Positions 3,065 through 26,952 of a stretch of 64,000 nt of DNA are shown here, piece by piece. The number at the start of each line of letters is the position of its first letter. Positions within the stretch are counted from its first letter, which is position 1. The notes under the pieces were generated by a model. It worked only from the letters and a program-made list of their open reading frames with translations, did not search any database and was not told where the DNA came from. This stretch comes from a virus. The DNA lies in the IMG/VR virus record IMGVR_UViG_3300031977_002889. One strand, 5' to 3'. The position numbers were made by a program, and so were the translations under genes.

Positions 3065-3371
3065 ATGATTTTACCTCTTTTATATCGCTTTGCCATAAAT
3101 CATCAATAATACGTTTAATATGAGATCTTAAATCATTTAAAGGAGCTATTAAATAATCTCCATCATGAAAATTATTTCTTTTTTTCTCTTCTAAATTCCA
3201 TAGTTGCTCATTGATAGATTTAAGTATATTAAAAAAATATTGTATATCCTTGTATTCTTCTAAATTATATTGCAAAATTTCTTTATGAACATTTAATCCA
3301 TGATCCATTTTAATTTGAAGTATAGTTGCTCTATCAACATATTCTCCAATACCAATTTCAACTTTAGGCAT
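3042..3371 (-). CDS. DUF6165-like protein
   Basis: IGIGEYVDRATILQIK...INEQLWNLEE...NDLRSHIKR...EVKSY pattern. Confidence 0.6.
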   Translation of the reverse strand: MPKVEIGIGEYVDRATILQIKMDHGLNVHKEILQYNLEEYKDIQYFFNILKSINEQLWNLEEKKRNNFHDGDYLIAPLNDLRSHIKRIIDDLWQSDIKEVKSYGSTLET

Positions 3372-3843: not shown

Positions 3844-4312
3844 TGTTAATCCTTAATACATATTGCATTCCACCATAATGTAATTGTTCATAAGTAATAT
3901 TCCAATTGTATTTACTCATTTTTTGAAACGCTTTAAATAAATTAGGACTTTCTTCTCTCGACACCCATATATTTTTATAGCCCATATCTAAACATTTTTC
4001 GGCCGATAAATCTAATGTTGTTGTTCCGCGTTTTAAATCAGCTTTCCATCCACCAAAATCATAATTTCTATCTCTCGTATGTCGTGACATAATTCTTATT
4101 GAACCATTGTATTCTGGTATTTCAACTGCAGCGCTATAATATACCATATTATCATAATTATCCCAACCCATTCTTGCAAACTTAGTATATTCAAATAAAG
4201 GATTTTTTAAATAATTATCTTCGTGTTTGTGGCCACGATTTTTTTCAAATAACTCATTTATATATGGAATATATTTTTCTATCTTATCCAGTTTCCAAAT
4301 CATCTGTTCCAT
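3824..4312 (-). CDS. hypothetical protein, possible GNAT-like fold
   Basis: Tightly packed ORF; RIMSR...GYKNIWVSRE pattern loosely resembles GNAT motifs. Confidence 0.35.
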   Translation of the reverse strand: MEQMIWKLDKIEKYIPYINELFEKNRGHKHEDNYLKNPLFEYTKFARMGWDNYDNMVYYSAAVEIPEYNGSIRIMSRHTRDRNYDFGGWKADLKRGTTTLDLSAEKCLDMGYKNIWVSREESPNLFKAFQKMSKYNWNITYEQLHYGGMQYVLRINNDKIFR

Positions 4313-4895
4313 CTAAGCTAAACATTAATGCAATTCGTGGTTTATTAGACATATTCATTACAGCATGTGGATATCCGATATTAAGAAAATACGCTTGACC
4401 GTTTTCTAAATTATAAGCTTCTAATTCACCATCGCGTCGAAATACATTGACCACATTTCTATCGCCATAAATTGGACAAATGCAACGAACAGCATATGAT
4501 ACATCATAATCAACATGAAATGGAATCGCTTTACCGGGTGCTAGCTTAGTAATTCGTATACGACTTGCTGGTGCTTTTAATTGAGTTACAATTTCTTCAA
4601 AATAACTGTTAGTATAATCTTCTGTTGGAATATTATAAAGATGTTCTTCTTTACGACGCAATCTTTCTTTAATGCTTGCCGTGTGTGGTAAAATTTCACT
4701 TGGAGTTGTTAAATTGATTTGTTCGAAGTTATCATACACCTGACCTACTAGTTCCATATGATTATCACACAGCATAGGATTAGCTGTACGAACATCAGTA
4801 AATTTTGTTGCCAATTTATCTGTAGCTTTTTGTAATTTATCTAAATCAATATTTAGATTAAAATTTTTAACTGTCGGTAAATTTTGTTTTCTCAT
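4284..4895 (-). CDS. 2OG-Fe(II) dioxygenase, Asp/Asn beta-hydroxylase-like
   Basis: RIRITKLAPG...FHVD...HAVMN...RIALM. Confidence 0.8.
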   Translation of the reverse strand: MRKQNLPTVKNFNLNIDLDKLQKATDKLATKFTDVRTANPMLCDNHMELVGQVYDNFEQINLTTPSEILPHTASIKERLRRKEEHLYNIPTEDYTNSYFEEIVTQLKAPASRIRITKLAPGKAIPFHVDYDVSYAVRCICPIYGDRNVVNVFRRDGELEAYNLENGQAYFLNIGYPHAVMNMSNKPRIALMFSLDGTDDLETG

Positions 4896-5659
4896 AGTTT
4901 ATAAATTCCTGCTAGACAAATTCGCGCTTGTTTTCCTCTTTTAAACTTTTCATATTCATCATCTTCTGTTGTTGCTAACCAAACTGAATCACTTGGTTTA
5001 AAATCCATTTGTTTACAAATTTCTTTTTGCTGATCTTTTAATTTGTTCCAAATAAAATCAATATCAAAATTACTTATAATAGTTTCTGCTATATCATGTG
5101 CATAATAATTATAATATTTTGCTGAGTGTATTAAACTATCTAATTTTTTATCAGGCCTTTTGGTAAAATACCAACCAGTTCTTACGTTACGAATACCAAA
5201 TGGTTTCGATAAACTAAAGAAAATATGTTCAACATTTGAACCAATTTCTATTTTTTTTATCTTTGTACTTCCAACATATGCTAAATCTAAAGCTAAAGAA
5301 CCTGAATGTATTTTTGTAAAGTTTCCATCAATAGCACTAGGCCAACTTTGATATTTAATACACTCTTCGTACGGATTACCTTTTGGACTAATCCATTGAT
5401 AGTCGCCTTCATCCATATAGACAGATCTAGTTTCTTGGTGATACCACCAATCCAATCCTTGAGTAATTCCATTCATAGGATAAACATTGTAGTTAGTTAA
5501 ATCAATGATTGGTAATAACCATTCTTTAATATTAGTTTTATAAAGTTCTACGCTATCATAATCTGGATCAACAGTGTCAATAATTTGTTTAACTTCAGTT
5601 AATACTGGTGTTCTTATAGCTTTACTAAGATTTAATATGCTATCTTTTATGGTGGTCAT
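4892..5659 (-). CDS. PLP-dependent aminotransferase class I/II-like protein (compact)
   Basis: DLAY and SLSKPFGIRNVRTGW PLP-lysine motif; start refined to MTTIK. Confidence 0.7.
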   Translation of the reverse strand: MTTIKDSILNLSKAIRTPVLTEVKQIIDTVDPDYDSVELYKTNIKEWLLPIIDLTNYNVYPMNGITQGLDWWYHQETRSVYMDEGDYQWISPKGNPYEECIKYQSWPSAIDGNFTKIHSGSLALDLAYVGSTKIKKIEIGSNVEHIFFSLSKPFGIRNVRTGWYFTKRPDKKLDSLIHSAKYYNYYAHDIAETIISNFDIDFIWNKLKDQQKEICKQMDFKPSDSVWLATTEDDEYEKFKRGKQARICLAGIYKL

Positions 5660-6200
5660 AATGGTTTCCTTCAAACGGAGCAAATAAATTAATCCACCAT
5701 TTATTTACTGGTCCTTTTTTTGAATGTCCTAATAAATTTAGCATTCCATAAAACACATACGAATATATATATACTAACAAAAAATGGTAAAAAAAGCCAT
5801 AATATAATGCAATCATCCAAGTTACTGCCATTGTCATTAAACCATACTTATGAAAAAACATTATTCTTGGATTTTGATATAAATCTTTTACAAATTTTCG
5901 CGGGATATTTTTTATTCTCCAAGTTGAGAACAATATTTGATGCCATTTTTTATATAATGGACTATGAGGATCTTTAGGAGTATCTGAATATGCATGATGC
6001 ATTCTATGAATTCCAGACCAACTTAATGCGGACTGACCTCCACATAATACACCGCAATAAAGCATAATACATTGTCCTATAGGAGATACTTTTATTTCAC
6101 CATGTGAGAAACAACGATGATAGCCAAACGTAATACCTATAGAAGCTAAGATATAATATAAGATATAAGATTCAATGAATACCATAATACAATTCTCCAA
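5640..6200 (-). CDS. fatty acid (acyl-CoA/acyl-lipid delta-9-like) desaturase
   Basis: His boxes GYHRCFSH, HRMHH, NHYDHH; SDTPKDPHSP; hydrophobic helices. Confidence 0.9.
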   Translation of the reverse strand: MENCIMVFIESYILYYILASIGITFGYHRCFSHGEIKVSPIGQCIMLYCGVLCGGQSALSWSGIHRMHHAYSDTPKDPHSPLYKKWHQILFSTWRIKNIPRKFVKDLYQNPRIMFFHKYGLMTMAVTWMIALYYGFFYHFLLVYIYSYVFYGMLNLLGHSKKGPVNKWWINLFAPFEGNHYDHHKR

Positions 6201-9903: not shown

Positions 9904-10605
9904 TTATTTTTTAATGAATTTTCTTATGATTGGAAACACTTTTTCAATCTCTTTGGCACATTCAAGAGCAACTTCACGGTGTTCTTTTTGTGTACCATTT
10001 CCAGATCTTAGTTCGATGTAGTGCATCCATGAACGAATAGTACCATTCATATAAATTCGTGACATCATATTACCTTCAGGCAATACAGCTCGAGCTTGTT
10101 CTTTAGCAATACCATTTTCAATTGCCCACTGATATACTTCTTTAGCTTGATTTATAACCCCGTGTTGTCTACGACCCCACTCAGTAATGAGATCTTGTTT
10201 TTTCAAATCTAATTGAATAGCAGGATCATTTTCGATTTCAATAGAATTTTGACGATTAGTATGGTCTTGAAGGCGAGCTTCACGTTTTACCATATCTAAA
10301 TCTTTAGTTGGATCAGCATATCGTTGACTAAACTCTTGAAAGCTAAAACTTCTATGTCTTAAGATTTGTCTCGCGATGTCTCTTGTTGTTTCAATTTCGA
10401 GGCATGCTGAGACCATTTCGAATGGCGACCAGTGAGATTCTTTGGCAAGGTATGACAAGAGTCTCTCAGCTGTTTTCTTGTTGGATTGGTTGGATGGATT
10501 GGAGACACGGGCGCAATACGCGATGAGATCTTGGGCATCATCAATTCCTATAAAAGCATCTTTTGCGGGTTGTGAATAACTAATTAGTCTTACATTAGGT
10601 TTCAA
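9904..10605 (-). CDS. thyX: flavin-dependent thymidylate synthase
   Basis: HWSPFE, RQILRHRSFSFQEFSQRY, QKEHR motifs. Confidence 0.97.
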   Translation of the reverse strand: MKPNVRLISYSQPAKDAFIGIDDAQDLIAYCARVSNPSNQSNKKTAERLLSYLAKESHWSPFEMVSACLEIETTRDIARQILRHRSFSFQEFSQRYADPTKDLDMVKREARLQDHTNRQNSIEIENDPAIQLDLKKQDLITEWGRRQHGVINQAKEVYQWAIENGIAKEQARAVLPEGNMMSRIYMNGTIRSWMHYIELRSGNGTQKEHREVALECAKEIEKVFPIIRKFIKK

Positions 10606-12811: not shown

Positions 12812-13155
12812 TATACATAGGCCTTACCTAGTAAATTTTCTGCTGACCAACGGGCTTCCCAATCTCCAATCCATTCAATTTTCTTTTCTCTTGACCAACC
12901 AGCCAGATAATCATTGTCTCTGTCAAATAGTTTTAATACTTCTTCTTCTGACATTAACTGTGTATCAACAATGTTTTCATTTAAACAAAGTTGGCTGAAC
13001 TCTTCAGCTTCATTGCAAGTCACAGAATCTTTAATAAAAGTTTCTGGATCACAGTCTTTGATGTCACTCGTAGGAATGACATATCTTGTTCTAAACTGTA
13101 GAACCGCGGTTAACACTACATAATCACTCATTTCGCTCATTCCATTTCCTCGCAT
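12811..13155 (-). CDS. hypothetical protein
   Basis: Coupled ORF; EEFSQ, DNDYL motifs. Confidence 0.55.
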   Translation of the reverse strand: MRGNGMSEMSDYVVLTAVLQFRTRYVIPTSDIKDCDPETFIKDSVTCNEAEEFSQLCLNENIVDTQLMSEEEVLKLFDRDNDYLAGWSREKKIEWIGDWEARWSAENLLGKAYV

Positions 13156-13798
13156 CTTCAGGTGTATTAATTTCTATTCCATTCCATTCTACCTCATTTA
13201 CACCAATTTGTACACCGTTTTTTATCCATCTTAATTGTTCTAATTGTTCAATTTGTTCTTCAGGATATTTTACATATGACCAATATTTAGCAAGTACTTC
13301 TCTTGTATATCCATACACACCTAAATGCCAATCACCATATCCTTTAAATCCTCTTCCAAACCATAAAGCTCTATTTTCAAATCGAATTAATTTTACCGTA
13401 TTAGGATCATTTTGTAATTCTTTAGGCATTTTAGTATAGACAGTAGATACATGATAAAACCCTAATAAATCTATACAACCTTCAATACAATCAGATGTTA
13501 CGTCAGGCATATCACCTTGAACATTAATAAACTGATCGTATCTTCTTAATAAAGGTATGGCTCCACTACATCTTTCAGTTCCATTTTTGTAATTAGCATT
13601 TTCAACTCTACAATTATTATCATTAAAACGTTCTGCTATACTCCAATCGTCTGTTAAAACATATGTATCAAGACCTGTTTTAGCACATACTTCATATACA
13701 CGCTTTATCATTGGAATACCACCCAAATTTACAAGTGGCTTTCCAGGAAATCGACTAGATTTAAATCTAGCTGGAATAAGAATAGCGGTCGATGTCAT
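13124..13798 (-). CDS. kdsB: 3-deoxy-manno-octulosonate cytidylyltransferase (CMP-Kdo synthetase)
   Basis: IPARFKSSRFPGKPL, GTER, NVQGD, HLGVY, EQLEQLR. Confidence 0.93.
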   Translation of the reverse strand: MTSTAILIPARFKSSRFPGKPLVNLGGIPMIKRVYEVCAKTGLDTYVLTDDWSIAERFNDNNCRVENANYKNGTERCSGAIPLLRRYDQFINVQGDMPDVTSDCIEGCIDLLGFYHVSTVYTKMPKELQNDPNTVKLIRFENRALWFGRGFKGYGDWHLGVYGYTREVLAKYWSYVKYPEEQIEQLEQLRWIKNGVQIGVNEVEWNGIEINTPEDARKWNERNE

Positions 13799-14525
13799 TT
13801 ACTACACTTTCAAAATCTTCTAGTCTTAGCATATTTGGTCCATCACTTGGTGCATTATCTGGATCTGCATGTACTTCTAAAAAGAAGTTGCTAATACCCA
13901 TAGCACTGGCAGCCCGAGCAAGACCTGGAACGTAATCACGATTACCGCCACTTGATTTCCCATTGCCTCCGGGTTTTTGGACAGAGTGCGTAACATCAAA
14001 AACAATAGGATTGTCATAGTTAGCAAGCATATACTGAAGGCCAGTATAGTCAACAACAAGATTATTATACCCAAAACTAGTACCTCTTTCTGTAATCCAA
14101 ACTTCTTTCGCGTTTTTAGTTTTACTTAATATGCCAGCAACATCCCAAGGTGCTAGGAATTGTCCCTTTTTAATATTAACTATGCAATTTGATTTACAAG
14201 CTTCTACAATTAAATCAGTTTGTCTACATAAGAATGCTGGTATTTGTAAAACATCAACTACACCTTTACATCTACTTATTTGTCCTACAGTGTGAACATC
14301 GGTTAATATTTTAAAACCAGCGTCTCTAATTTTTTGAAAGTCAGGCAGTGTGTCATCAATACCTACACCACGCTTACCAGACATGCTGGTGCGATTTGCT
14401 TTGTCAAAGCTTGCTTTAAATATATATTCAATTTCATATTTATCACAAACATCTTTACAATGATTAGCAATTTCTAAAGATTGCTCAAGAGACTCATGTT
14501 GACACGGTCCTGCTATTATCCGCAC
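13767..14525 (-). CDS. kdsA: Kdo-8-phosphate synthase
   Basis: IAGPC, KASFDKANRTS, QIPAFLCRQTDL, KKGQF, ERG, SDGPN. Confidence 0.96.
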   Translation of the reverse strand: MRIIAGPCQHESLEQSLEIANHCKDVCDKYEIEYIFKASFDKANRTSMSGKRGVGIDDTLPDFQKIRDAGFKILTDVHTVGQISRCKGVVDVLQIPAFLCRQTDLIVEACKSNCIVNIKKGQFLAPWDVAGILSKTKNAKEVWITERGTSFGYNNLVVDYTGLQYMLANYDNPIVFDVTHSVQKPGGNGKSSGGNRDYVPGLARAASAMGISNFFLEVHADPDNAPSDGPNMLRLEDFESVVNDIDRYSYSS

Positions 14526-15827: not shown

Positions 15828-16583
15828 TTATACTGGAATCCCTTCGAATTGATTATTCATAATAAATTGCTTTACGTCTACTTTTGGTTTCCAACCAAAT
15901 TCTTCTTTCATATGAGTATTATCAGCAGTATTGTTTGGAGCTTCACAAGTAGCACCTTCTTTTATAGGTACGTTATATCCAGCCAATTCTGCCAAATCAG
16001 ATACAGTATTACCCACTCCAGTACCAATATCGTAAGCGCGCTGTTGTGGTTCATTGTCAGAATTGATAATAGCCAATATCGCTGAGACAACATCACTAAC
16101 GTGAATAAAGTCACGCACGTGATTAGTACTATACTCAAGATTGCTTGAAAGAAGCCTACCCATGAACATAGTATCGCGAGCACCATCACCATACACAGTT
16201 GTAAAGCGAAGCGCTGTTTGTCTAGCTCTTGCAGTTTCTTCGTTAACTTTCTTTGTTGTTCCATAAGGAGATAACCACCATCTGTGAATACAGGATGAGG
16301 AAGCATACAATAATGGTACATTATTCTTCCTACAAATTTGTTGTATTCGAGTTGTATTTTCTACATTGTTTTTCCAATATTCTTGTGGATAGTCAATGCT
16401 ACGTCTTACGTCGGCTTGTGCTGCTAAATGAATTACCCAACTTACACCAGAAGGTAATTCAAAGTGATCGATATGTCTTTCAATCTTTCGATCCCACTGA
16501 TCTACAACATGTCCAGCTGCAATCAGTTCCTTTACTAAATGGGATCCAATGAACCCATGTGATCCAGTTACTACAATTTTCAT
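15828..16583 (-). CDS. NAD-dependent nucleotide-sugar epimerase/dehydratase
   Basis: TGSHGFIG, HLAA, YASSS, YGTTK, RDFIHV. Confidence 0.9.
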   Translation of the reverse strand: MKIVVTGSHGFIGSHLVKELIAAGHVVDQWDRKIERHIDHFELPSGVSWVIHLAAQADVRRSIDYPQEYWKNNVENTTRIQQICRKNNVPLLYASSSCIHRWWLSPYGTTKKVNEETARARQTALRFTTVYGDGARDTMFMGRLLSSNLEYSTNHVRDFIHVSDVVSAILAIINSDNEPQQRAYDIGTGVGNTVSDLAELAGYNVPIKEGATCEAPNNTADNTHMKEEFGWKPKVDVKQFIMNNQFEGIPV

Positions 16584-16621: not shown

Positions 16622-17659
16622 TTATACCATAAATTCATCTAATAGTACACTCTTTTCTGGTGGTCGACCTTGTCTTTGTGCCCATCCTGATACCCAACCA
16701 GAATTATTTTGAATATTAGCAGAGATATGGTCAAACGTATCGTCATTTCGTGGTACATAATTTTGACCAAATCGAACAAAGTCACATAAAACATCTTCAT
16801 TATCTCGTGGTGCCCCACCCATACGTTCACATAATATATCCATAAATTTATCAGTACTATATCCGCTTGACATCATTTTCATACACCTAACGGCATTATT
16901 ACCAAAATATCCATGAGACTGATCATCTACAAGATCTTTATGATAATCACCCAAATCATATGAAAAAGCAGCATAAACAAAGTTAAATTTTCTGTGTCCC
17001 TGTTCAGCATTATATGCATTTAAAAAATCTGTAACTTGTTTATGTGTTTTCTTTTGGCCACTATGTAACCAATCAATGAGTCTATCTAAAAGATGTGGTA
17101 ATTCTTCAGTAAGATAATCAATAACACTTACACCTTTACGAGGAGCTGGAGGTTGGTTTCCAATTGAAGTGAAAGTTGGAATCTTATTTGCTTTACGGTA
17201 TTTAAGATCAGCACTCATTTCTTCAATTGATTCTAAAACTCCCCATTTATGAACACAATTATTTCTATAACCATGATCTCTTGTAAATGATGCTCCAGAT
17301 CCTGTGGCTCTATGACACATATAAGCAAATAACCACGTTTTAAGATCCCATTTTTCAGTGATATAGCTATCAACCAAATCTACGTGTTTTTGACCTAAAG
17401 ATTTATTCTTTAATTGATGATGTCTTTTTGGTGTTTCACTACGATACCTTAAATCTTGTAAAACATTTGAAAAACCAGCAGCATCTCTTGTATAACAATC
17501 GTAAATATCAATCTCTTGCATAAGATCGTCATTTATTTCTTTATTTGCTATTTCACCTGTATAAGGAATTTTTCCCCAGTTACAATTAATTTGTAACCAC
17601 TTGGCTCTTGGATAATAATAATCTACTAAAATATCAATTGCTTTTTCATTAAGCCACAT
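16622..17659 (-). CDS. aGPT-PPlase superfamily protein (5-hm-pyrimidine DNA kinase helical domain / amino acid:DNA transferase-like), paralog 1
   Basis: DL...GNNAVRCM...DNEDVLCDFVRF resembling GPGAxxGL...ExxLCEFxKY; DNA-modification context. Confidence 0.65.
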   Translation of the reverse strand: MWLNEKAIDILVDYYYPRAKWLQINCNWGKIPYTGEIANKEINDDLMQEIDIYDCYTRDAAGFSNVLQDLRYRSETPKRHHQLKNKSLGQKHVDLVDSYITEKWDLKTWLFAYMCHRATGSGASFTRDHGYRNNCVHKWGVLESIEEMSADLKYRKANKIPTFTSIGNQPPAPRKGVSVIDYLTEELPHLLDRLIDWLHSGQKKTHKQVTDFLNAYNAEQGHRKFNFVYAAFSYDLGDYHKDLVDDQSHGYFGNNAVRCMKMMSSGYSTDKFMDILCERMGGAPRDNEDVLCDFVRFGQNYVPRNDDTFDHISANIQNNSGWVSGWAQRQGRPPEKSVLLDEFMV

Positions 17660-18533
17660 TCTTCGCCCACTCCCTATATGAATCTATAGTATCTGCTAAT
17701 TCTAAATTTTGTAAAATTGGTTCTTTTCCTACATTCCAAAAGAGAATGTCTTTATCAGTATTTTTAGGAATATACTTCCATACTTTGCCATCGTAAGTAT
17801 CTATAGTCGGAAAAGGTGGTAGGTTTTCTTTTTTCTCTGCTTGTAAAAATGCAAGAGGTTCAGATATAGGTTTGGCAATTCCAAGCTCTCCAGCTTTCAT
17901 ATTACGAGATACACAAACTGAATGAAACTTTGCATTTGGCCATGCAATTTGAAGGGCACGAGTAAGTACACCTGTTGATGTAGCAGTATAAACTTCTTCT
18001 GGTTCTCGTATCTTCGAAGCTGTCTTTACAATACCAGCTGTGACCATTTCATGTTTCAATCCAAGTGGTACAAAGAAAGCATTTTTTCTTTCAGAAGCCC
18101 ATTTCTTTGCAATGGCATTTAGATTTGGCATAGCAGCTATTCTATGAAATTGGAATTTAGCTCCTCGTTCAATACAACAGGCTTGATGATGACTAATCTT
18201 TTTTGATGAAGGCATAAAAAGCATGACATCTTTACCATGTCGTTTTGCTACGTCAAGTATACTAACACCAGCAAGACCAGTCCGAGGTTGAACATAGACG
18301 ATAGTATCGATTCGAGAATCGAGGCTACTAATAAGACAATCACCGCCACGAACTTTAGAACCCACAAGATAGTCGTCACGAACAACTCGTACACCATCGT
18401 GCATATTAACCACTGGTTCACCATAAGGATCTTCCCAATCTTTTGCTAAATCTAAATAATATTCTTTTGGATCTCCATAGAATGGGTTTATATCTTTATT
18501 AATTCCATCTATAACATGATTTTTAAACGCCAA
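17649..18533 (-). CDS. PLP-dependent fold-type II enzyme (as in hypermodification-locus decarboxylases)
   Basis: VVRDDYLVGSKVRG (PLP Lys), STGVL, YDGK, LFWNVG; TTG start with GGGGAG RBS. Confidence 0.75.
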   Translation of the reverse strand: MAFKNHVIDGINKDINPFYGDPKEYYLDLAKDWEDPYGEPVVNMHDGVRVVRDDYLVGSKVRGGDCLISSLDSRIDTIVYVQPRTGLAGVSILDVAKRHGKDVMLFMPSSKKISHHQACCIERGAKFQFHRIAAMPNLNAIAKKWASERKNAFFVPLGLKHEMVTAGIVKTASKIREPEEVYTATSTGVLTRALQIAWPNAKFHSVCVSRNMKAGELGIAKPISEPLAFLQAEKKENLPPFPTIDTYDGKVWKYIPKNTDKDILFWNVGKEPILQNLELADTIDSYREWAKNVA

Positions 18534-19479
18534 GAGGTGATACTCCCCAATCGTTTCTTCTATGAAAAGGAGGAGCAATATGTACACTTCCACCATGTTC
18601 CATATAAGTATTCGCATATTTTTCTGGATCCATAGTATACCAATGTTCAGGTGGCATTACTACTTTACCTTTTGATTCATTATGTAGTATTTCAATAAAA
18701 CGATTTGTTAAATCATATCGTTCTTTCCATGATCCAAAGAATGGTGTCTTTTTAAAATAACCAGTTTTAGGTAATTTACGACCTTCATATTCTACTGGAA
18801 CAGGTGCCGTAAACCAAACATCATCTCCAAGTTCATTACCTTGACGAACATATTCTTTTAAAGTTTCTTTTAAATCGAAATCAGAATGACGCAATATATG
18901 GTGCCTAATATCAATAGAACCGAGGCATATAGTAAGTCTATGTACGGATTCTTTGAAGTCTTCTCTGAGTCCTCTTCTAAGAGATCCATAAAGAGTTTTA
19001 CCATCAGTACGGTACACACGGTCACCAGCAGCGCTAAAAGCAATTGTATGAGAATCTCCATAGGTAATTCCATCTGATTTAATATTTCTTTGTGTTAAAA
19101 AAGGAATATATTTTATTCTTTCAGAAACCATATCACACCACTTTTCAGTGATGCCTTCATATGTAGTATTATTACCTATACGAACTTTTAACATAGCTCC
19201 ATAGTCTGGCATATCGCAATCAAGTGACGTGATATTGTTACACGCTAACAACGTGTTTATTTTATCAAATATTTCTTTTGTAGCTCCACCAAATAAATTA
19301 AGTGTCCCACCAAAATTCACGCCATGATCAACATAAACTTGATCGGCTTTTAGAATATTAGCAGAACACTTATGATCTATTGCGGCATTTAGTTGGTTTT
19401 GCCAAATTTGTGTCCATCCTAAAACATGTGACTTTTCAGTTTTAGGAATATTAGTGATAGGATTCGTTATGACTTTCAT
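18523..19479 (-). CDS. putative DNA-modification protein: T4 beta-glucosyltransferase-like N-terminus plus SGNH-like C-terminus
   Basis: GTLNLFGG resembles BGT SSINFFGG; YGDSH...GSIDIRHH...SVHI resembles SGNH blocks. Confidence 0.45.
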   Translation of the reverse strand: MKVITNPITNIPKTEKSHVLGWTQIWQNQLNAAIDHKCSANILKADQVYVDHGVNFGGTLNLFGGATKEIFDKINTLLACNNITSLDCDMPDYGAMLKVRIGNNTTYEGITEKWCDMVSERIKYIPFLTQRNIKSDGITYGDSHTIAFSAAGDRVYRTDGKTLYGSLRRGLREDFKESVHRLTICLGSIDIRHHILRHSDFDLKETLKEYVRQGNELGDDVWFTAPVPVEYEGRKLPKTGYFKKTPFFGSWKERYDLTNRFIEILHNESKGKVVMPPEHWYTMDPEKYANTYMEHGGSVHIAPPFHRRNDWGVSPLGV

Positions 19480-20446
19480 ATACTGACCTCAAGCTGAAAT
19501 CCTTTGGAAAGATCCATTCATATGGAATTCTTTTCGTAGGTGATTTTACTCCATGATTAATAGCAATATGCTTATAAAAGAAACATGTCTTATCTTCTAT
19601 GTTCAAGAGCTTTTGCTCTTTAATTGGATTCATAGGATGATTAGACAATATCTCCATTTGTTCTAGCCATATTCTACCATATTCGTTAGTAGAAGTAAAC
19701 AGTCCATTTTCATCTATTTCGTATTTTACTTTACTCATTAAATTTTTACCACCAAATATTTGGTGCATACCATCAAAGTGACCAGTACCTCCAAATAAAA
19801 CAGATTCTGGATCACATACATTAGGATATGCCATAGCAATATAACGAGCAAAGTTTTTACATGGATACATAGGATTTCTAAATCCTTGTTCCTTCGCAAA
19901 ATACTGTGCCATTTCTTTTGCAAGTTCCATCATAGTCCAAGGTCTATTTTTAGAACTTAAAATATGACCCATATCTTCAGCAGCTTGTTTTGGTCCAGTT
20001 AATAACCATTCACGAACGTTAGTGCCTTTAGGATAATAGATTTGAAATAAATCGTTTCGAGCATGTCTATGATGCTCAAATCGTTCTTTTAGTCCTTGTA
20101 CACCATGATTCATTAGAGTTGTAAGTGTTAACCAATGTTCATTAGTAAAACTAAAAACAAGAGTATACCACATACGATGAAAATCATCGGTTACATCTGA
20201 CATAATATCACAGAATGGATGTTCATGCCAGTGTAACCGATGTGAAAAGATTTGATAATCTTGTTTGAGTAGTGTATCTTGTCTTTGATCGAACTTACGA
20301 CAAAACTCAAAAAACTTTTCGAATCTTTGTTCTTGAGTCCAATCTTTCATCCAACTATCAACAGGTTTTCCTTTTTTATTAAGGTCTACTACTGTTGTAT
20401 TTTCATATAAGATATCATATTCATTAGGCGATAAGTTCATAATCAA
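19451..20446 (-). CDS. aGPT-PPlase superfamily protein, paralog 2
   Basis: FFEF...DTLL..YQIF; GTGHFDGMHQIFG...NIEDKTCFFYK. Confidence 0.6.
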   Translation of the reverse strand: MIMNLSPNEYDILYENTTVVDLNKKGKPVDSWMKDWTQEQRFEKFFEFCRKFDQRQDTLLKQDYQIFSHRLHWHEHPFCDIMSDVTDDFHRMWYTLVFSFTNEHWLTLTTLMNHGVQGLKERFEHHRHARNDLFQIYYPKGTNVREWLLTGPKQAAEDMGHILSSKNRPWTMMELAKEMAQYFAKEQGFRNPMYPCKNFARYIAMAYPNVCDPESVLFGGTGHFDGMHQIFGGKNLMSKVKYEIDENGLFTSTNEYGRIWLEQMEILSNHPMNPIKEQKLLNIEDKTCFFYKHIAINHGVKSPTKRIPYEWIFPKDFSLRSVYESHNESYH

Positions 20447-20457
20447 AGAGTTCTTTT

Positions 20458-20709
20458 TTAGTAACCACCATTATAAGTTTGTTCAGCTTGCAGATGAGCC
20501 ATATCAACTTCAAGTTTAGTAATTCGTTCTTTTAATTCAATTATTTCTTGTTTCTTTTCAAGTTCTTCTTGTGCTTTTAATTTAGCATCTTCTTCACGAC
20601 TTCGTCTCATCATATAATCGTAGTATGGTTCACGATAATACGTAGTATCCATGTATGTTTCATCATCTTCGTTATTCGTGACTTTTCTCAGTTTTTGCAA
20701 TAAGTTCAT
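20458..20709 (-). CDS. hypothetical coiled-coil protein
   Basis: GGAG RBS; coupled ORF. Confidence 0.5.
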   Translation of the reverse strand: MNLLQKLRKVTNNEDDETYMDTTYYREPYYDYMMRRSREEDAKLKAQEELEKKQEIIELKERITKLEVDMAHLQAEQTYNGGY

Positions 20710-21187
20710 ATTTAACTCCTGCTTCTTGAAATAATTGTTTTGTTAACGACCATGAGTCGCGCCACCGCTCATCTACATCAGCTCGCATCACGACTCTTTT
20801 TACTCCAACTTGAATTACACCTAAGGCACAATTCGAACAAGTTGGTAAACCAGTTACATATATGGTTGATCCATCTAATGAAACACCATTGAAACCAGCA
20901 TTATAGATGCAGTTCATTTCAGCATGAACCACCAATTTGTATTTTTTTTCTCTATCTGTATACCTCTCATTTGAATCTATAATATTACGCGGAAATCCAT
21001 TATAACCTTGAGCTAATACTTGGCCTTTATTACCAATAGCAACAGCTCCAATTTGCCGCGATGGATCTTTAGACCATGTAGCAATATGCTCAGCAAGATC
21101 TAAATATCGATAATCCCATTTACTTAACAAGGTGAAAATGCCTTTCATAAACATGTAGATTTTGAACTTGCCAAACAATATGACCAA
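20672..21187 (-). CDS. cd: dCMP deaminase
   Basis: WSKDPS, GYNGFPR, HAEMN, TCSNC zinc motif; true start probably about 21130. Confidence 0.93.
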   Translation of the reverse strand: MVILFGKFKIYMFMKGIFTLLSKWDYRYLDLAEHIATWSKDPSRQIGAVAIGNKGQVLAQGYNGFPRNIIDSNERYTDREKKYKLVVHAEMNCIYNAGFNGVSLDGSTIYVTGLPTCSNCALGVIQVGVKRVVMRADVDERWRDSWSLTKQLFQEAGVKYELIAKTEKSHE

Positions 21188-21815
21188 GCTCTATTTTATC
21201 TCCGCCATCATACATGTTTAATCCATTATAATCCATGATCAAACGATTCATCACTGCAAGTTGCCAAGCATAATCATTTTTATAACCATACACGACATCA
21301 TTACTCCGCATTTGAACTACAGAGTGTAAAAGATTATCTCGTATGTAATAAGAAACGGCATTGGTACAGATGAAATCGTTTTTACCATTTTCGTTATATT
21401 CCAACCAAATAGATGGACGATTATAGATCATAGTAGCTCTACGACCGTCAGGATTTAACATTAATTCATCGAGTACATTTCCGTACTGGTTATAATATAT
21501 ATCATCAAAAATCAGTTTTCCGTAATTAGAATTGATTTCTCCATGAGTATTTGCCGCATATTTCCAAGCAGCAGGAGCATCAGCGCCAGACTCTTTGTTA
21601 ATATCATAGATATTTGTTGATTGTGAATCATACCACGCAAGTTCTTTTGCGATATATTCATCGTTAGGCGTACCAAAAATAGATGGTTCATCTGCTATAA
21701 ACTGAGCACCAATTAATTCAATTGTTTTTTGACCAGTTTTATCAGTTGTGAATGCTTTATCGCTTAATTCGCCAATAAAATATTCACGGATATCATGTAC
21801 ACTATTTATTTTCAT
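21120..21815 (-). CDS. gp42: dCMP hydroxymethylase (T4 gp42-like thymidylate synthase superfamily)
   Basis: INSNYG, DFICTN, MRSNDVVYGYKNDYAWQ (Asp at the base-specificity position), LHVYERHF. Confidence 0.88.
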   Translation of the reverse strand: MKINSVHDIREYFIGELSDKAFTTDKTGQKTIELIGAQFIADEPSIFGTPNDEYIAKELAWYDSQSTNIYDINKESGADAPAAWKYAANTHGEINSNYGKLIFDDIYYNQYGNVLDELMLNPDGRRATMIYNRPSIWLEYNENGKNDFICTNAVSYYIRDNLLHSVVQMRSNDVVYGYKNDYAWQLAVMNRLIMDYNGLNMYDGGDKIELGHIVWQVQNLHVYERHFHLVK

Positions 21816-21821
21816 GGTTAT

Positions 21822-21851
21822 ATTCTATCACATATCTTTCTTAAAGTAAAC
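21822..21851 (-). promoter_or_regulatory. T4-like early promoter for the gp42/modification operon
   Basis: GTTTAC...TGATAGAAT a few nt upstream of the ATG (possibly leaderless). Confidence 0.7.
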
Positions 21852-22649
21852 AATATTTTGTTCTTTTTCTCGTTCATCTCGTTCATATTGTGCTCTATAC
21901 TTATTGTTTGCCTTAATAACTTCTTCAATGATTGAAAGAACTCCAAGACCTGCGGTTTCAACAATTGCTTTTGTATCTTTTGGAAAACACGCTCCACCAA
22001 AACCTCTTTTATTGTCAAATCCTGGAACTTTAGTATGACCATGACCAATTCGCTTATCAGATCCAACTGCATTGAATACTACAGAAGGATTGGCATCGTA
22101 TTGTGCACAAAGATCGTACATTTGATTGAAAAATGTTACTTTAGTTGCTAAGAAAGAATTAATAGTATATTTAACTAAAGAAGCTTCAATCATAGTCATA
22201 GTAAAAAACGATGCAGGATTACATAAACTATAACCTACATATAAATCTATAACATCATCTACAGCTTCAACTGGTCCACCTAAAATATGGAATTGTGGAT
22301 TAATAAATTGTTCTGCTGCTGATTTTTCAGTAAGAAATTCTGGATTATACACCACATCTGGATGCATCATCTCTTCGATAATATGTGGTGGAACAGTAGA
22401 TTTTAGAATAATTTTTGCTGGAAAATCATTTGAGAGTAATTCTTCCATGACTTCTCGAACGATACTAAAATCATCCATTGGTGTTGGAACACAAACGAAA
22501 ATATAATCTGTATCATCGTCAATGTCCATAATTTCAGTGCCAAGTTTTGGATCGATATGTTGTTGAATCACATGAGGATGATTAAATCCATACGCAACTG
22601 CACCACCAACAAAACCTAATCCAACGATAGCTATTTTTTGTTCGTGCAT
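21828..22649 (-). CDS. ugd: UDP-glucose/GDP-mannose 6-dehydrogenase family
   Basis: GLGFVG, CVPTP, KSTV, NPEFL, FGGACFPKD; lacks the C-terminal UDP-binding domain. Confidence 0.85.
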   Translation of the reverse strand: MHEQKIAIVGLGFVGGAVAYGFNHPHVIQQHIDPKLGTEIMDIDDDTDYIFVCVPTPMDDFSIVREVMEELLSNDFPAKIILKSTVPPHIIEEMMHPDVVYNPEFLTEKSAAEQFINPQFHILGGPVEAVDDVIDLYVGYSLCNPASFFTMTMIEASLVKYTINSFLATKVTFFNQMYDLCAQYDANPSVVFNAVGSDKRIGHGHTKVPGFDNKRGFGGACFPKDTKAIVETAGLGVLSIIEEVIKANNKYRAQYERDEREKEQNIVYFKKDM

Positions 22650-23065
22650 TCCGAAACTCTCATCCTTAAATCGCTTGTCGAAAAGCGATGATCTCTCTTG
22701 TTGAAGTAAAGTTGTATTCCCCTTTTCCTGCATTCGTCTTTTCCTGTGAATTCTTTATCCCGATATTCTTCACCGAGTATTCGAATATCAATAGGATACA
22801 TGTTGAGAATGTCGAGTAAATCATTTTCAGTCGTATATACGACTACTTCATCGACATATTTAATTGCTGCTAATTGTGCCTGCCTCTCAACAACAGTTTG
22901 TACAGGTGTATTTTTTAATCTACGATCAATTGAAGGATCCACCTGTAATCCAACAATAAGATAATCGCAAACCGATTTTGCTTCACGTAACATTGCGACG
23001 TGGCCAGCATGTAATAAATCAAATGTACTACAAGTAAAACCTATAGTGACTTTAGAGTATTCCAT
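22631..23065 (-). CDS. cytidylyltransferase (TagD/RfaE-like)
   Basis: FDLLHAGH, YVDEV, FSTSDLR. Confidence 0.88.
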   Translation of the reverse strand: MEYSKVTIGFTCSTFDLLHAGHVAMLREAKSVCDYLIVGLQVDPSIDRRLKNTPVQTVVERQAQLAAIKYVDEVVVYTTENDLLDILNMYPIDIRILGEEYRDKEFTGKDECRKRGIQLYFNKRDHRFSTSDLRMRVSECTNKK

Positions 23066-23772
23066 GTATGTTTCCAATCCATAACTGTAAATGATTTGCC
23101 GCATGGCATTTCATTCACTGCATCATAAATTTCAGCGTCATTACCACCAAATTGTGTTTTATCGCCAAAGAAATATATATTATCGTAATGTTCGAAGTCT
23201 TTTAGGATCTGAGCTTTGTTACAACCTAATGGTGTAATATCAATTCCAGTTTCACCAGCCACTTTAAATTCAATATCTTTAAAATGTTCTCTAAGCCTAT
23301 GCGCAATCTTATCTCTATCTTGATTTAATCTATCATATTCAACATACATCTTACGTTCACCAAGAGTACAATTACGACCGACTATACTAAAATTAAGCAA
23401 ACCTACTCGTTGTTCAATATGATTACCAGTTCGAAGTGGAAATTTATTTTCTCTTAATTCAAATTCCAAAATACGAATAAGGTGATCAGATGCTTTCCAA
23501 TCACTATCACTTATACAAATATTTTTTCTAAAAACTTGAGCACCAGAACATTGGTAAACACGTTTACACAATTCGTAAATATATTCACCAACTTGTTCAA
23601 CGGTTTTTGGTTTATCACTGCCAGTTACAAGATAGACTTCGTTCTTTTCGGCGAACTTAGAAAACCATACAGCGAATTTTTTATCCATACGTCCACGGCT
23701 TGGAGTTAACGTGCCGTCTACGTCAAAGATATATTTACTCTTCTGCTTGCGATTTACGTGTGGTATTGACAT
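23041..23772 (-). CDS. HAD IIB phosphomannomutase-like enzyme
   Basis: FDVDGTLT, VTGSD, NFSIVGR, FFGDK...GGND. Confidence 0.88.
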   Translation of the reverse strand: MSIPHVNRKQKSKYIFDVDGTLTPSRGRMDKKFAVWFSKFAEKNEVYLVTGSDKPKTVEQVGEYIYELCKRVYQCSGAQVFRKNICISDSDWKASDHLIRILEFELRENKFPLRTGNHIEQRVGLLNFSIVGRNCTLGERKMYVEYDRLNQDRDKIAHRLREHFKDIEFKVAGETGIDITPLGCNKAQILKDFEHYDNIYFFGDKTQFGGNDAEIYDAVNEMPCGKSFTVMDWKHTWNTLKSL

Positions 23773-24100
23773 TAATTGGCCTATTCAAAAAATCACGACC
23801 TGGTTCTTGACCATCCATACCACCTTGCATATAGGCTGCAAAGAAGGATGCATAGTTAATCATATCTATACACGAATCTTCGAGCGATTCAAAATTCGGT
23901 GCGTAATCGGGATCACTTTCCATTGCTTCAAGTACTGACTGCATACGTAAAATCTTGGCATGCATGATATCAAGAATGGTTGCGCAACCACGTGGATAAT
24001 ACATGGCTTGACGAATACGTGAATTTGGATTTTGGTAATCGTTACCTTTTTTATTCTGAATTTCAGCTGCTTTTTGCAGGATCTTTAAGCTTTCTTTCAT
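23735..24100 (-). CDS. nucleotide-modification-associated (Nmad1/DUF1599-like) helical protein
   Basis: KKGNDY...K..R...EDSCIDMINYASF. Confidence 0.65.
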   Translation of the reverse strand: MKESLKILQKAAEIQNKKGNDYQNPNSRIRQAMYYPRGCATILDIMHAKILRMQSVLEAMESDPDYAPNFESLEDSCIDMINYASFFAAYMQGGMDGQEPGRDFLNRPINVNTTRKSQAEE

Positions 24101-24939: not shown

Positions 24940-25645
24940 TACCTCCAGAAAATGGCCATTTTGGCCTTTTCAGAACATGTTTATCAGACTGCCATAATCT
25001 TCGAAGAGCTGCTTTTTTTAAATCAGCAGATTCTATATGAGTTATAGGATTTGAAAAAGTCATTACTGATAATACAGAACCAGCTTTAAAATGATATTTA
25101 CCAGGAGAAAAAAATGCTATCGTATTTAATGGCATAGCTTTACATTCAACTAAACCCGGTGACACTTTATATGGTACATCATTCCAATAAAGCGGATCTA
25201 TAAATTGAACTAAAGTATTTTTTACATTGATATGACAATCAAATTCAAATTTTATTGCAACGTAATTTCCTGGCATTCCTTGAAGTTGACCAGATCCATG
25301 GTGAGTTATACTTTTTAAAACTGTATATCTGCTTTTTGTTTGGTATTTGTAATCTAGATTTTCATCTATCTCAAGTAAAATATCACATGGAAATTTAATA
25401 GCAACTGAATGTTTAAATAGTGTATTAAATCCTGGACAAGACTTCGAAGTTTTTACAGACTCAGGAATAAAGTGCATCAAATCATTCCAATATTTTCTTA
25501 TATAATCAGGAACAGATTTGGCCTCATTATGTGTAATAACGGGTTGAGTTGTAAACCATTTCGGTTTTTCTAAAGAAAGAAATTCTCCCTCTATACTATG
25601 ACCAACGTGAGTCATATCACCTATACAATATTCTAATTTAGACAT
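24929..25645 (-). CDS. hypothetical protein (KxCPG family, beta-rich)
   Basis: TSKSCPGF...FPCD...H..GQ...PG pattern. Confidence 0.5.
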   Translation of the reverse strand: MSKLEYCIGDMTHVGHSIEGEFLSLEKPKWFTTQPVITHNEAKSVPDYIRKYWNDLMHFIPESVKTSKSCPGFNTLFKHSVAIKFPCDILLEIDENLDYKYQTKSRYTVLKSITHHGSGQLQGMPGNYVAIKFEFDCHINVKNTLVQFIDPLYWNDVPYKVSPGLVECKAMPLNTIAFFSPGKYHFKAGSVLSVMTFSNPITHIESADLKKAALRRLWQSDKHVLKRPKWPFSGGNDD

Positions 25646-26564
25646 TTTTATACACATACTCCAAAGCTCTATCTGCTTCTTTTTCCATTGGTCGATTTTC
25701 ATACCAATTACCAGTTTCGATATCAAGTTCTCTACACATTGCAGTGATTTCTTGACATGTAATTGGATAATTATTCTTCACAGCATTACCAGCAATGGCA
25801 ACCATAATTTGGTACATCTTATGATACCAACCAGTATTATTAATTAAACGATATTCGGATTCCAAATTTTTAGGAAAGAATGGACAGTCACGATATGATG
25901 ACCAATTAAAATTAGTATTATCAAGTTTGGCTTTACGATGCTCTACAATTTGTGCTTGAATTTCTTCTGGTAATCTATCAAAGAAATTATTGCCGCTTTT
26001 AATTGGAGCTGGATGTTTAGCCATTAAAACATCAGGATCTATAGCCATACCAGTATGATCAAAAATAAAGTTGAAAGCAGACTTGTACGTGCCAGGGATA
26101 TAATACATTCGTGAATAATCTTTAGTCTGTTTATCTCCAATCGAACCGAGTTCGGTATTGAGGGCGTACCAGAAAGCTCGGATGTTATCTGCTTTAACTC
26201 TTTTCGTAAGTGGGAACACAAGCCTAAACTTAGGATAATCTTCTCGACTGCTAGCAGTACTATAGCAAATAAAGCTGAACTTATTATATAAGGCAACCAA
26301 CTCATTTTGTAGATCTCCTTCAAACTTGTGGTCATCAACATCAACAGCACACCAACCACCCCAATCAACTACATTGGCATTAGCTCGAGTTGTATTGGGG
26401 TGGTAAGTGGCAGGAGATATTAGTTGTGCTTCTTCTTTAGATTCACGAGGCACTTTAGCGAGATCGTATAACAAATGTTTGAACTGGTCAAAATTGTCCA
26501 AGTCCATACGACGATGTGTCTTATTGTCAAATACGCTTTTAAACAGCGTTAGAGAGATCTCCAT
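25638..26564 (-). CDS. non-DnaG (AEP/primpol-like) DNA primase
   Basis: AVDVDD, YSTASS, KFRLVFPL, D...SRMYYIP; helical C-terminal domain. Confidence 0.7.
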   Translation of the reverse strand: MEISLTLFKSVFDNKTHRRMDLDNFDQFKHLLYDLAKVPRESKEEAQLISPATYHPNTTRANANVVDWGGWCAVDVDDHKFEGDLQNELVALYNKFSFICYSTASSREDYPKFRLVFPLTKRVKADNIRAFWYALNTELGSIGDKQTKDYSRMYYIPGTYKSAFNFIFDHTGMAIDPDVLMAKHPAPIKSGNNFFDRLPEEIQAQIVEHRKAKLDNTNFNWSSYRDCPFFPKNLESEYRLINNTGWYHKMYQIMVAIAGNAVKNNYPITCQEITAMCRELDIETGNWYENRPMEKEADRALEYVYKNV

Positions 26565-26952
26565 GATTATCCTCGTGATTAGGACCTTTCCACCCACCGG
26601 GTTTCAATAGATCAGGTAAACCAAATCGATTTGGCCGACCAGGTTTTATACCAGCCTTTTTATCCATATTGGCACGATAAATTTCATCCCACGCTTTATG
26701 AGCATCTACTCCAAAAACGTCTAATGTACCAATAGCGAAAACACATAGATCAATTAAACCATCTACGATTTCTTCTTCATCGCCATTATTAATAGCTCCA
26801 AGAGTTTCGTGTAACTCTTCATTAATCATTAACATACGAAACATAAGATACTTACGCATAAGATCTTTGTTGTCTTTGTTATTTTCAAACCAATCATGTA
26901 CACCATATTTCTGGTGCATTTCATTGATATCTTTTACCCAATTTTCACTCAT
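26539..26952 (-). CDS. MazG-like all-alpha dNTP pyrophosphatase (dCTPase/dUTPase analogue)
   Basis: EELHE...EEIVDGLIDL, ANMDK, DLLKP..W. Confidence 0.8.
   Translation of the reverse strand: MSENWVKDINEMHQKYGVHDWFENNKDNKDLMRKYLMFRMLMINEELHETLGAINNGDEEEIVDGLIDLCVFAIGTLDVFGVDAHKAWDEIYRANMDKKAGIKPGRPNRFGLPDLLKPGGWKGPNHEDNHGDLSNAV

What the first reader, a model, noticed from the sequence alone, without database searches (positions are those of the whole stretch)
16622..21815. Candidate new DNA hypermodification system: amino-acid-type machinery coupled to a cytosine hydroxymethylase
Seen: one operon behind an early promoter encoding a gp42-like enzyme, dCMP deaminase, aGPT-PPlase-like protein 2, a BGT-N/SGNH-like protein, a PLP enzyme and aGPT-PPlase-like protein 1. 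Nearby are an Nmad1-like gene and a MazG-like dNTPase, and a separate thyX makes ordinary dTMP. Known: in phages ViI, M6 and PhiW-14, aGPT-PPlase-superfamily kinases and amino acid:DNA transferases (plus PLP decarboxylases in ViI and M6) act on 5-hmdU made by a dUMP hydroxymethylase. T4-type 5-hmC is instead glycosylated. Inference: here 5-hmC is activated and substituted with an amino acid- or amine-derived group, possibly then acylated, giving an undescribed modified cytosine for restriction/CRISPR evasion. The family calls are by motif only.
Basis: partly seen in the sequence, partly recalled or inferred. Interest (0 to 1): 0.92.

Follow-up and report, generated by a model that had tools for sequence, protein, structure and literature searches.

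The report
Amino-acid decoration kit for phage cytosine
An uncultured marine T4-like phage carries, where T4 keeps its DNA-glucosylating gene, a widespread gene set that most likely attaches an amino-acid-derived group to hydroxymethylcytosine in its DNA, a base for which I found no chemical report.

Summary
The operon is real and conserved. Gene 21120-21815 is a T4 gp42 homologue with the dCMP-hydroxymethylase residues; all 99 distinct thymidylate-synthase homologues in the module-bearing loci share the dCMP signature. The 345- and 329-aa proteins miss the Pfam aGPT-PPlase models, but their predicted folds best match the amino acid:DNA transferase PaMx11 gp46 (Z 8.9, 9.2). Both keep its Glu-x-x-x-Cys motif and are paralogues, not clades 1 and 2. 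The PLP protein is a remote relative of the M6 decarboxylase gp52. The core (gp42, BGT-N/SGNH protein, PLP, 345-aa transferase) fills T4's beta-gt slot. The SGNH protein is fused to the transferase in seven protein clusters. Best reading: hmC in new DNA is primed by the SGNH protein, substituted with an amino acid, then decarboxylated (about 0.55; hmC hypermodification of some kind about 0.85). A sister cassette swaps PLP for inositol genes; cultured Aeromonas phage 44RR has the fusion and is testable. No chemistry is shown. This scan reported the same module earlier on other genomes.

The parts
21822..21850 (-). T4-early-type promoter motif directly before the gp42-like gene
   Evidence: motif 8 times in window vs 0.24 expected; function not tested
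21120..21815 (-). dCMP hydroxymethylase (T4 gp42 homologue), 231 aa; core
   Evidence: 1b49, E 5e-69; D147, C150, D173, D181 = hmdCMP-synthase signature
20672..21148 (-). dCMP deaminase (start at 21148 or 21130); usual neighbour in T4-like members, absent near several small-phage members
   Evidence: PF00383 E 4e-17; phrog_174
20458..20709 (-). 83-aa ORF, unknown, not conserved in the module
19451..20440 (-). 329-aa HhH/ADDT-fold protein, second (accessory) transferase paralogue; E282-D283-x-x-C286
19671..19699 (-). second copy of the early-promoter motif, inside the 329-aa gene, upstream of the SGNH gene
   Evidence: function not tested
18523..19479 (-). 318-aa protein: BGT-N-like domain plus SGNH-like domain (G141-D-S-H144, G187-x-I-D190, H300); core; proposed priming enzyme
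17649..18533 (-). PLP enzyme, 294 aa, Lys60; remote relative of M6 gp52 decarboxylase; core
   Evidence: (phrog_7093 E 9e-36)
16622..17659 (-). 345-aa HhH/ADDT-fold protein, core transferase; E288-D289-x-x-C292; clamp-binding-like C-terminal motif
23735..24100 (-). Nmad1/DUF1599-like gene, frequent upstream neighbour
   Evidence: E 0.025, below cut-off
26539..26949 (-). PRA-PH/MazG-like dNTP pyrophosphatase, candidate dCTPase
   Evidence: E 8e-10; PRA-PH co-occurs with hmC synthases in PMC8670742; substrate not tested
9904..10605 (-). ThyX, separate route to ordinary dTMP

Best explanation
A post-replicative hypermodification pathway for 5-hydroxymethylcytosine. (1) The gp42 homologue makes hm-dCMP, which enters DNA through the phage polymerase; the MazG-like enzyme probably removes dCTP; the deaminase feeds dUMP to ThyX for ordinary T (enzyme identity shown by homology and signature residues; pool logic inferred from T4). 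(2) The 318-aa protein binds hmC in DNA with its BGT-like N-domain and primes the 5-CH2OH with its Ser-His SGNH domain, most simply by O-acylation, giving a leaving group in place of the phosphate that a P-loop kinase supplies in the thymidine pathways (inferred; weakest step). (3) The 345-aa HhH protein, riding the sliding clamp, flips the base, adds Cys292 to C6, expels the leaving group and lets an amino acid side chain add to the exocyclic methylene (fold and motif shown; chemistry by analogy with PaMx11 gp46). (4) The PLP enzyme decarboxylates the adduct to a cationic aminoalkyl group, for example the cytosine analogue of ViI's 2-aminoethoxymethyl base if the donor is serine (family kinship shown; donor unknown). 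The 329-aa paralogue is an optional second transferase for another donor or sequence context. Purpose: shielding DNA from host nucleases (inferred).
For: gp42 homologue E 5e-69 with D147/C150/D173/D181; 99 of 99 distinct TS homologues in module loci carry Asp at the 169 and 177 positions, including ones only 23-39% identical to the window's, while M6's dUMP enzyme lacks that Asp (114). Module occupies T4's beta-gt position between genes 42 and uvsX. AF2 models (pLDDT 93, 89) best match 8z2m PaMx11 gp46 (Z 8.9, rmsd 3.9, 202 aligned; Z 9.2, rmsd 4.1, 225 aligned), followed by HhH glycosylases; BFVD and Atlas neighbours are ADDT/HMUDK_hel proteins. E288 and C292 are kept in 72 and 71 of 73 distant homologues, with the spacing of gp46 E243/C247. 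PLP profile matches M6 gp52 (E 4e-7 at Z=1000) with the Lys aligned. All 7 long homologues of the 345-aa protein are SGNH-HhH fusions; four fusion loci have a PALP gene directly downstream and three of these a dCMP-type TS. 5-hmU kinase PF18748 not found in 9 related genomes, found in the M6 control. Clamp-like tail in 38/105 HhH345 and 23/107 SGNH termini vs 1/97 PLP, 0/56 gp42. Complete genome G001 keeps an ordinary TS besides the dCMP-type one. Inositol sister cassette keeps the SGNH gene but swaps transferase type and PLP, with no overlap among the loci.
Against: No chemical or biochemical data. No sequence-level link from either HhH protein to PF18723, PF18724, M6 gp51/gp55 or ViI gp247; Z about 9 is modest for a helical fold, and glycosylases follow within 1-2 Z. 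The SGNH fold was not modelled, PDB profile search gave nothing, and the BGT-N match is weak (hhalign probability 5%; Pfam E 0.002 in 2 of 50 members). The PLP profile barely touches ViI gp226 (E 0.8). No phage dNMP kinase was found in the marine relatives, so the hm-dCMP to hm-dCTP step is unexplained. The whole genome of this phage is not held, so a kinase outside the window is not excluded for it.
Confidence: 0.55

Rival explanations
1. Same hmC target and transferase, but no priming step: Cys292 addition lets hmC lose water directly, or the PLP enzyme first makes a free amine donor, and the SGNH protein acts last as an N- or O-acyltransferase or as an editing esterase.
For: PaMx11 ends its pathway with an acetyltransferase. 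SGNH enzymes are typical acyltransferases and esterases (own knowledge). From memory, not checked here: C5-methyltransferases can couple thiols to hmC in DNA without a phosphate leaving group.
Against: The SGNH gene is the one constant part, also in the inositol cassette that has no amine, and it is fused N-terminally to two different HhH transferase types, the place a kinase holds in SP10's kinase-HhH protein. An O-acyl step on inositol is still possible, so this is not excluded.
Confidence: 0.22
2. The real substrate is hmU: the adjacent deaminase converts hm-dCMP or hm-dCTP to the uracil form, and the module is a kinase-free variant of the thymidine pathways.
For: The deaminase is next to gp42 in most T4-like loci. 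Phage deaminases linked to dCMP-type synthases can deaminate 5hm-dCTP (10.1101/2024.12.05.627091). All characterised ADDTs act on uracil, and gp46 binds O4 through a metal.
Against: ThyX or an ordinary TS is kept, which argues for normal dTTP; the same paper reads such deaminases as serving genomes with modified C; the deaminase is missing from the fetched ranges around three fusion loci; 44RR has the full T4 set for hmC DNA (42, 56, alc, denB; PMC2993671) with the SGNH-HhH fusion; the module sits in the beta-gt slot; the residue after the catalytic-site Glu is Asp here against Thr/His in M6 gp51/gp55.
Confidence: 0.1
3. The substituent is a sugar or amino sugar made by the flanking genes (PMM, cytidylyltransferase, UDP-sugar dehydrogenase, epimerase, kdsA/B), with the PLP enzyme shaping the donor.
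For: Sugar-nucleotide genes flank the operon here; T4-like phages RB69 and DLP3 encode their own NDP-sugar kits for DNA (PMC13326640); the sister cassette points to a polyol donor.
Against: These genes are missing or relocated in many loci with an intact core and absent beside the small-phage fusions; no complete GT-B glycosyltransferase in the operon; the PLP protein is of the M6 gp52 type, not a sugar aminotransferase.
Confidence: 0.08
4. The HhH proteins are glycosylases or base-exchange enzymes (repair, or attack on unmodified host DNA), and DNA carries plain hmC.
For: AGOG, OGG and queuine-salvage folds score within 1-2 Z of the ADDT.
Against: Invariant Glu-x-x-x-Cys as in ADDTs, obligatory-looking linkage to PLP (195 of 224 loci) and SGNH (200 of 224) genes, and fusions have no use in repair.
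Confidence: 0.05

Closest known systems
Thymidine hypermodification of ViI (5-NeOmdU) and M6 (5-NedU): dUMP hydroxymethylase, P-loop 5-HMUDK, AADT/aGPT-Pplase2, PLP decarboxylase (PMC8989533)
   Same: HhH-fold transferase with Glu-x-x-x-Cys, often as a paralogous pair; PLP enzyme related to M6 gp52; TS-family hydroxymethylase upstream
   Different: Hydroxymethylase has the dCMP signature; no 5-HMUDK found; a BGT-N/SGNH protein is the constant partner; ThyX present; transferases not detectable by PF18723/PF18724
PaMx11 gp46 (PUGT, PDB 8z2m; PMC11472151)
   Same: Best structural match for both HhH proteins; motif spacing of E243/C247
   Different: 8-9% identity; Thr244 (metal ligand next to uracil O4) corresponds to an Asp; no phosphomethyl-dU substrate expected
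T4 glucosyl-hmC pathway (gp42, gp56, beta-glucosyltransferase)
   Same: gp42 orthologue about 50% identical; same genomic slot between 42 and uvsX; weak likeness of the 318-aa N-domain to BGT's acceptor domain
   Different: No UDP-glucose-binding domain or alpha/beta-gt; no gp1-type kinase found in marine relatives
5-carbamoyloxymethylcytosine (hmC carbamoyltransferase, PMC8670742)
   Same: Non-sugar group on the hmC hydroxyl; same neighbours (TS, PRA-PH, dCMP deaminase)
   Different: No carbamoyltransferase; different enzymes altogether
Arabinosyl-5-hydroxycytosine of RB69/DLP3 (PMC13326640)
   Same: gp42-like enzyme in the same region
   Different: Those enzymes have D169N; this one keeps Asp (D173), so it predicts hmC, not 5-hydroxyC
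Aeromonas phage 44RR2.8t ORF233c (NP_932588, uncharacterised)
   Same: N-terminal 334 aa match the 318-aa family (E 3e-80), fused to an HhH domain; genome has a dCMP-type gp42 and no glucosyltransferases
   Different: Its HhH domain is of the HMUDK_hel-like type found with inositol genes; neighbour is a sodium:solute symporter, no PLP gene beside it

Membership tests
T4 gp42 dCMP hydroxymethylase (21120-21815) | Full-length homology and catalytic Cys | tested here: met
   E 5e-69; C150
T4 gp42 dCMP hydroxymethylase (21120-21815) | N177D (dCMP), L143D/E (hydroxymethyl), D169 kept (not 5-hydroxy) | tested here: met
   D181, D147, D173; rules from PMC13326640
T4 gp42 dCMP hydroxymethylase (21120-21815) | Makes hm-dCMP | not testable with these tools
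   needs in vivo or in vitro assay
aGPT-Pplase2/ADDT (PF18724) and aGPT-Pplase1/HMUDK_hel (PF18723) | Match to the Pfam model | tested here: not met
   no hit for either protein or 194 homologues; no profile match to M6 gp51, gp55, ViI gp247
aGPT-Pplase superfamily (HhH glycosylase-like DNA transferases) | HhH-glycosylase two-bundle fold nearest to an ADDT | tested here: met
   8z2m top hit for both models, Z 8.9 and 9.2; BFVD/Atlas neighbours ADDT and HMUDK_hel; modest scores
aGPT-Pplase superfamily (HhH glycosylase-like DNA transferases) | C-terminal Glu-x-x-x-Cys catalytic motif | tested here: met
   E288/C292 and E282/C286 invariant; same spacing in M6 gp51 and gp55 and gp46; equivalence by motif, not by residue-level superposition; my pattern did not find it in ViI gp247 (127)
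Thymidine hypermodification system (ViI/M6/PhiW-14) | dUMP hydroxymethylase | tested here: not met
   99 of 99 linked TS homologues have the dCMP Asp (111)
Thymidine hypermodification system (ViI/M6/PhiW-14) | P-loop 5-hmU DNA kinase | tested here: not met
   PF18748 absent in 9 related genomes (3 complete), present in M6 control; M6 gp54 and ViI gp243 find nothing in the loci; this phage's own full genome not held
PLP decarboxylases M6 gp52 / ViI gp226 | Homology and Schiff-base Lys | tested here: met
   phrog_7093 E 9e-36 (5); profile vs gp52 E 4e-7, Lys60 aligned with K36 (77, 17); ViI gp226 only E 0.8 (127)
PLP decarboxylases M6 gp52 / ViI gp226 | Decarboxylates an amino acid bound to DNA | not testable with these tools
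   needs assay
SGNH hydrolase/acyltransferase (318-aa protein, C-half) | Block I G-D-S and block V His | tested here: met
   G141 D142 S143 and H300 invariant in 50 sequences; Lipase_GDSL weak in 6 of 50, best E 0.004 (90)
SGNH hydrolase/acyltransferase (318-aa protein, C-half) | Block III Asn (GxND) and block V Asp (DxxH) | tested here: not met
   Ile189 in place of Asn; no Asp three residues before H300 (84); so SGNH-like, non-canonical
SGNH hydrolase/acyltransferase (318-aa protein, C-half) | SGNH fold | not tested
T4 beta-glucosyltransferase N-domain (318-aa protein, N-half) | Significant profile match to PF09198/T4 BGT | tested here: inconclusive
   2 of 50 members, best E 0.002 (90); fusion P0347 E 0.08 (102); hhalign 45 columns, probability 5% (89)
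T4 glucosyl-hmC system | Complete alpha- or beta-glucosyltransferase | tested here: not met
   none in the operon; slot filled by this module (4, 5, 49, 75)

The most novel reading that the evidence does not exclude
The BGT-N/SGNH protein is a new kind of DNA-base activator that replaces the kinase of the thymidine pathways and primes hmC for interchangeable Cys-dependent HhH transferases, giving a whole unrecognised family of cytosine hypermodifications: an amino-acid-derived amine where a PLP gene is present (this phage, hundreds of aquatic phages), an inositol ether where inositol genes or a symporter are present (including cultured Aeromonas phages 44RR, 31, 25).
Probability: 0.4. Interest if true: 0.88.

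Novelty: new variant of a known kind. Interest (0 to 1): 0.74.

Why it matters
All amino-acid-derived pyrimidine hypermodifications that I found described sit on uracil/thymine and need a DNA kinase; hmC is known to receive sugars or a carbamoyl group. It would also answer the question left open in PMC2993671 of what 44RR-type phages put on hmC without glucosyltransferases, and could supply enzymes for selective labelling of 5hmC. It is directly testable with four small genes on T4gt DNA.

Tried and rejected
tblastn of both HhH proteins against 50,697 GenBank phages: no match, so no cultured carrier of this exact transferase type. Pfam scans of the proteins and 194 homologues: no aGPT family. 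hhalign of the 345-aa family against M6 gp51, gp55 and the 44RR C-domain: nothing; first A1-vs-A2 comparison too weak, a deeper profile then linked the paralogues. Profile searches of PDB sequences for the HhH and SGNH families and phmmer for the PLP protein: no significant hit. 5-hydroxycytosine route rejected (D173 kept). Search for longer SGNH forms gave one protein with a low-complexity extension on a 3-kb contig, not informative. Iyer et al. 2013 could not be read, so an earlier computational mention of this clade is not excluded. Palindrome counts (139) had no control and are not used. Generic sigma-70 scan was not above chance; only the specific motif was.

Full report
Observation. The stretch 16622-21815 holds seven minus-strand ORFs, overlapping or nearly abutting, in a T4-like phage of about 34% GC with gp43, gp44/62/45, gp46/47, uvsX, gp41 and capsid genes. 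In reading order: gp42-like (231 aa), dCMP deaminase, an 83-aa orphan, a 329-aa protein, a 318-aa protein, a PLP enzyme (294 aa from a TTG behind a GGAG) and a 345-aa protein. A T4-early-type promoter motif ends 7 nt before the first ATG and occurs 8 times in the window against 0.24 by chance. ThyX, a PRA-PH/MazG-like gene and a weak Nmad1 match are nearby.

The hydroxymethylase. The 231-aa protein matches T4 gp42 structures at E 5e-69. By the residue rules in PMC13326640, D181 predicts dCMP, D147 a hydroxymethyl product, and D173 excludes the 5-hydroxy enzymes. All 71 close homologues in fetched loci have the same four residues; over all loci, 99 of 99 distinct TS homologues have Asp at both the 169 and 177 positions, including ones only 23-39% identical from small phages and from 183-256 kb genomes. 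M6's dUMP enzyme lacks this Asp. The link to a dCMP-type enzyme therefore holds across distant TS lineages.

The two unknown proteins. Neither hits Pfam or PHROGs, nor any GenBank phage, but each has a large metagenomic family (181 and 462 homologues). AF2 models (pLDDT 92.8 and 89.2) both find PaMx11 gp46, the solved amino acid:DNA transferase, as the best of 48,161 chains (Z 8.9 and 9.2), followed almost only by HhH glycosylases; BFVD and the Atlas give ADDT and HMUDK_hel neighbours. The scores are modest, but the ranking is coherent. In gp46, E243 and T244 bind a metal at the base and C247 attacks C6 (PMC11472151). Here E288-D289-x-x-C292 and E282-D283-x-x-C286 are invariant. A deep profile links the two proteins to each other (E 8e-6 at Z=1000) and aligns these motifs: they are paralogues of a separate group, not clades 1 and 2. 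The Asp where uracil-acting enzymes have Thr or His may be a cytosine determinant (inference).

The PLP protein matches phrog_7093 (E 9e-36), and its family profile matches the M6 decarboxylase gp52 with the Schiff-base Lys aligned; ViI gp226 is barely reached.

The 318-aa protein has invariant G-D-S-H, G-x-I-D and a distal His. It lacks the canonical Asn and Asp, and I could not fold it, so 'SGNH-like' remains a motif-level call.

Conservation and anatomy. In more than 100 IMG/VR loci the set gp42, deaminase, SGNH, PLP, 345-aa recurs in shuffled order between polymerase/primase and uvsX, which is where T4 has beta-gt. Of 224 loci with the 345-aa type, 195 have the PLP gene and 200 the SGNH gene (loci are redundant and often truncated). 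The 329-aa gene and the sugar genes are optional. An exhaustive profile search found seven long homologues, all SGNH-HhH fusions; in small phages such fusions are followed by a PALP gene and a dCMP-type TS, three of them without a deaminase in the fetched range. Aeromonas 44RR ORF233c is the same kind of fusion with another HhH type; 44RR has genes 42, 56, alc and denB but no glucosyltransferase (PMC2993671), and its gp42 is hm-dCMP-type. A sister cassette keeps gp42 and the SGNH gene but replaces the 345-aa and PLP genes by a 44RR-type HhH protein and inositol-synthesis genes. So the SGNH protein is the constant part, and transferase plus tailoring gene vary together. A clamp-binding-like tail, like that of the window's polymerase, ends the 345-aa protein and many homologues (lead taken from earlier scan notes and checked here), which fits action on new DNA.

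The missing kinase. In the thymidine pathways a P-loop kinase, not the aGPT-PPlase, makes the leaving group (PMC8989533). PF18748 was not found in nine related genomes, three of them complete, and was found in M6; M6 gp54 and ViI gp243 find nothing in the loci. This phage's own genome is not held beyond the window.

Mechanism. Most likely: hm-dCMP synthesis and incorporation; priming of the hmC hydroxyl by the SGNH protein; Cys-dependent substitution with an amino acid by the 345-aa protein; PLP decarboxylation to an aminoalkyl group. I put hmC hypermodification of some kind at about 0.85, an amino-acid-derived group at about 0.65, and the full order with SGNH priming at about 0.55 for a role at or before transfer and less for acylation specifically. 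Rivals: SGNH acting last or as editor (0.22); hmU made by the deaminase, which is chemically possible but opposed by ThyX or an ordinary TS, 44RR's hmC gene set and deaminase-free loci (0.10); a sugar donor (0.08); plain glycosylases (0.05). An open gap is the lack of a phage dNMP kinase in the marine relatives.

Comparison and novelty. It works like the ViI/M6 pathway but fails two of its defining features (dUMP enzyme, kinase), and it shares only gp42 and the genomic slot with T4. Literature searches found no description of the module or of an amino-acid-derived cytosine, with the caveat that Iyer et al. 2013 and most subscription papers could not be read. I class it as a new variant of a known kind. 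This scan has reported the same module on other genomes; those notes are not independent evidence, and the claims above were tested here. Interest 0.74: widespread, mechanistically surprising and cheap to test, but without any chemical proof.

Noticed in passing
L194:3183-8234, also L179, L188, L192, L195-L199: Sister cassette: dCMP-type gp42, deaminase, myo-inositol-1-phosphate synthase (PF01658 E 3e-8), HAD-like gene, HMUDK_hel-type HhH protein (PF18723 E 3e-9), the same SGNH gene and often a C5-methylase-like gene; never together with the PLP or 345-aa genes in the loci held (119, 122, 127). Earlier scan reports describe it.
   Followed up: partly
L001:4402-8382 (Aeromonas phage 44RR2.8t): SGNH-HhH fusion next to a sodium:solute symporter (PF00474 E 6e-53) that might import the donor.
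   Followed up: partly
L102:9396-9998: A class II aldolase-family gene (PF00596 E 4e-25) is inserted between the PLP and 345-aa genes in one close relative.
   Followed up: no
genomes G001, G003, G004, G011: No T4 gp1-type dNMP kinase (PF21448) or thymidylate kinase found although a dCMP hydroxymethylase is present; 44RR has gp1 and the small phage L272 has a thymidylate-kinase-like gene (122, 133, 136). How hm-dCMP is phosphorylated is unexplained.
   Followed up: partly
window 21828-23772 and 15828-16583: PMM-like, cytidylyltransferase, short UDP-sugar dehydrogenase and epimerase genes flank the operon; presence and position vary among relatives.
   Followed up: partly
window 13124-14525: kdsA and kdsB homologues between uvsX and the helicase.
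   Followed up: no
window 25638-26597: 319-aa primase-polymerase-like ORF without Pfam hit near the DNA polymerase, conserved in relatives; no gp61 seen in the window.
   Followed up: no
window 24-6200: Run of about 11 minus-strand genes, several 2OG-Fe(II) oxygenase-like, a SET-like and a desaturase-like ORF (by eye), at about 30% GC.
   Followed up: no
L026, L031, L035, L044, L045, L053: The 329-aa paralogue stands alone there; in two of the longer contigs the SGNH and PLP genes lie elsewhere in the genome (99, 111), so the module can be dispersed.
   Followed up: partly
L093:8892-11008 (complete 183-kb genome G003): SGNH gene directly followed by the 329-aa type only, with no PLP or 345-aa gene in the 21-kb locus; the genome's only TS homologue is dCMP-type.
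   Followed up: partly
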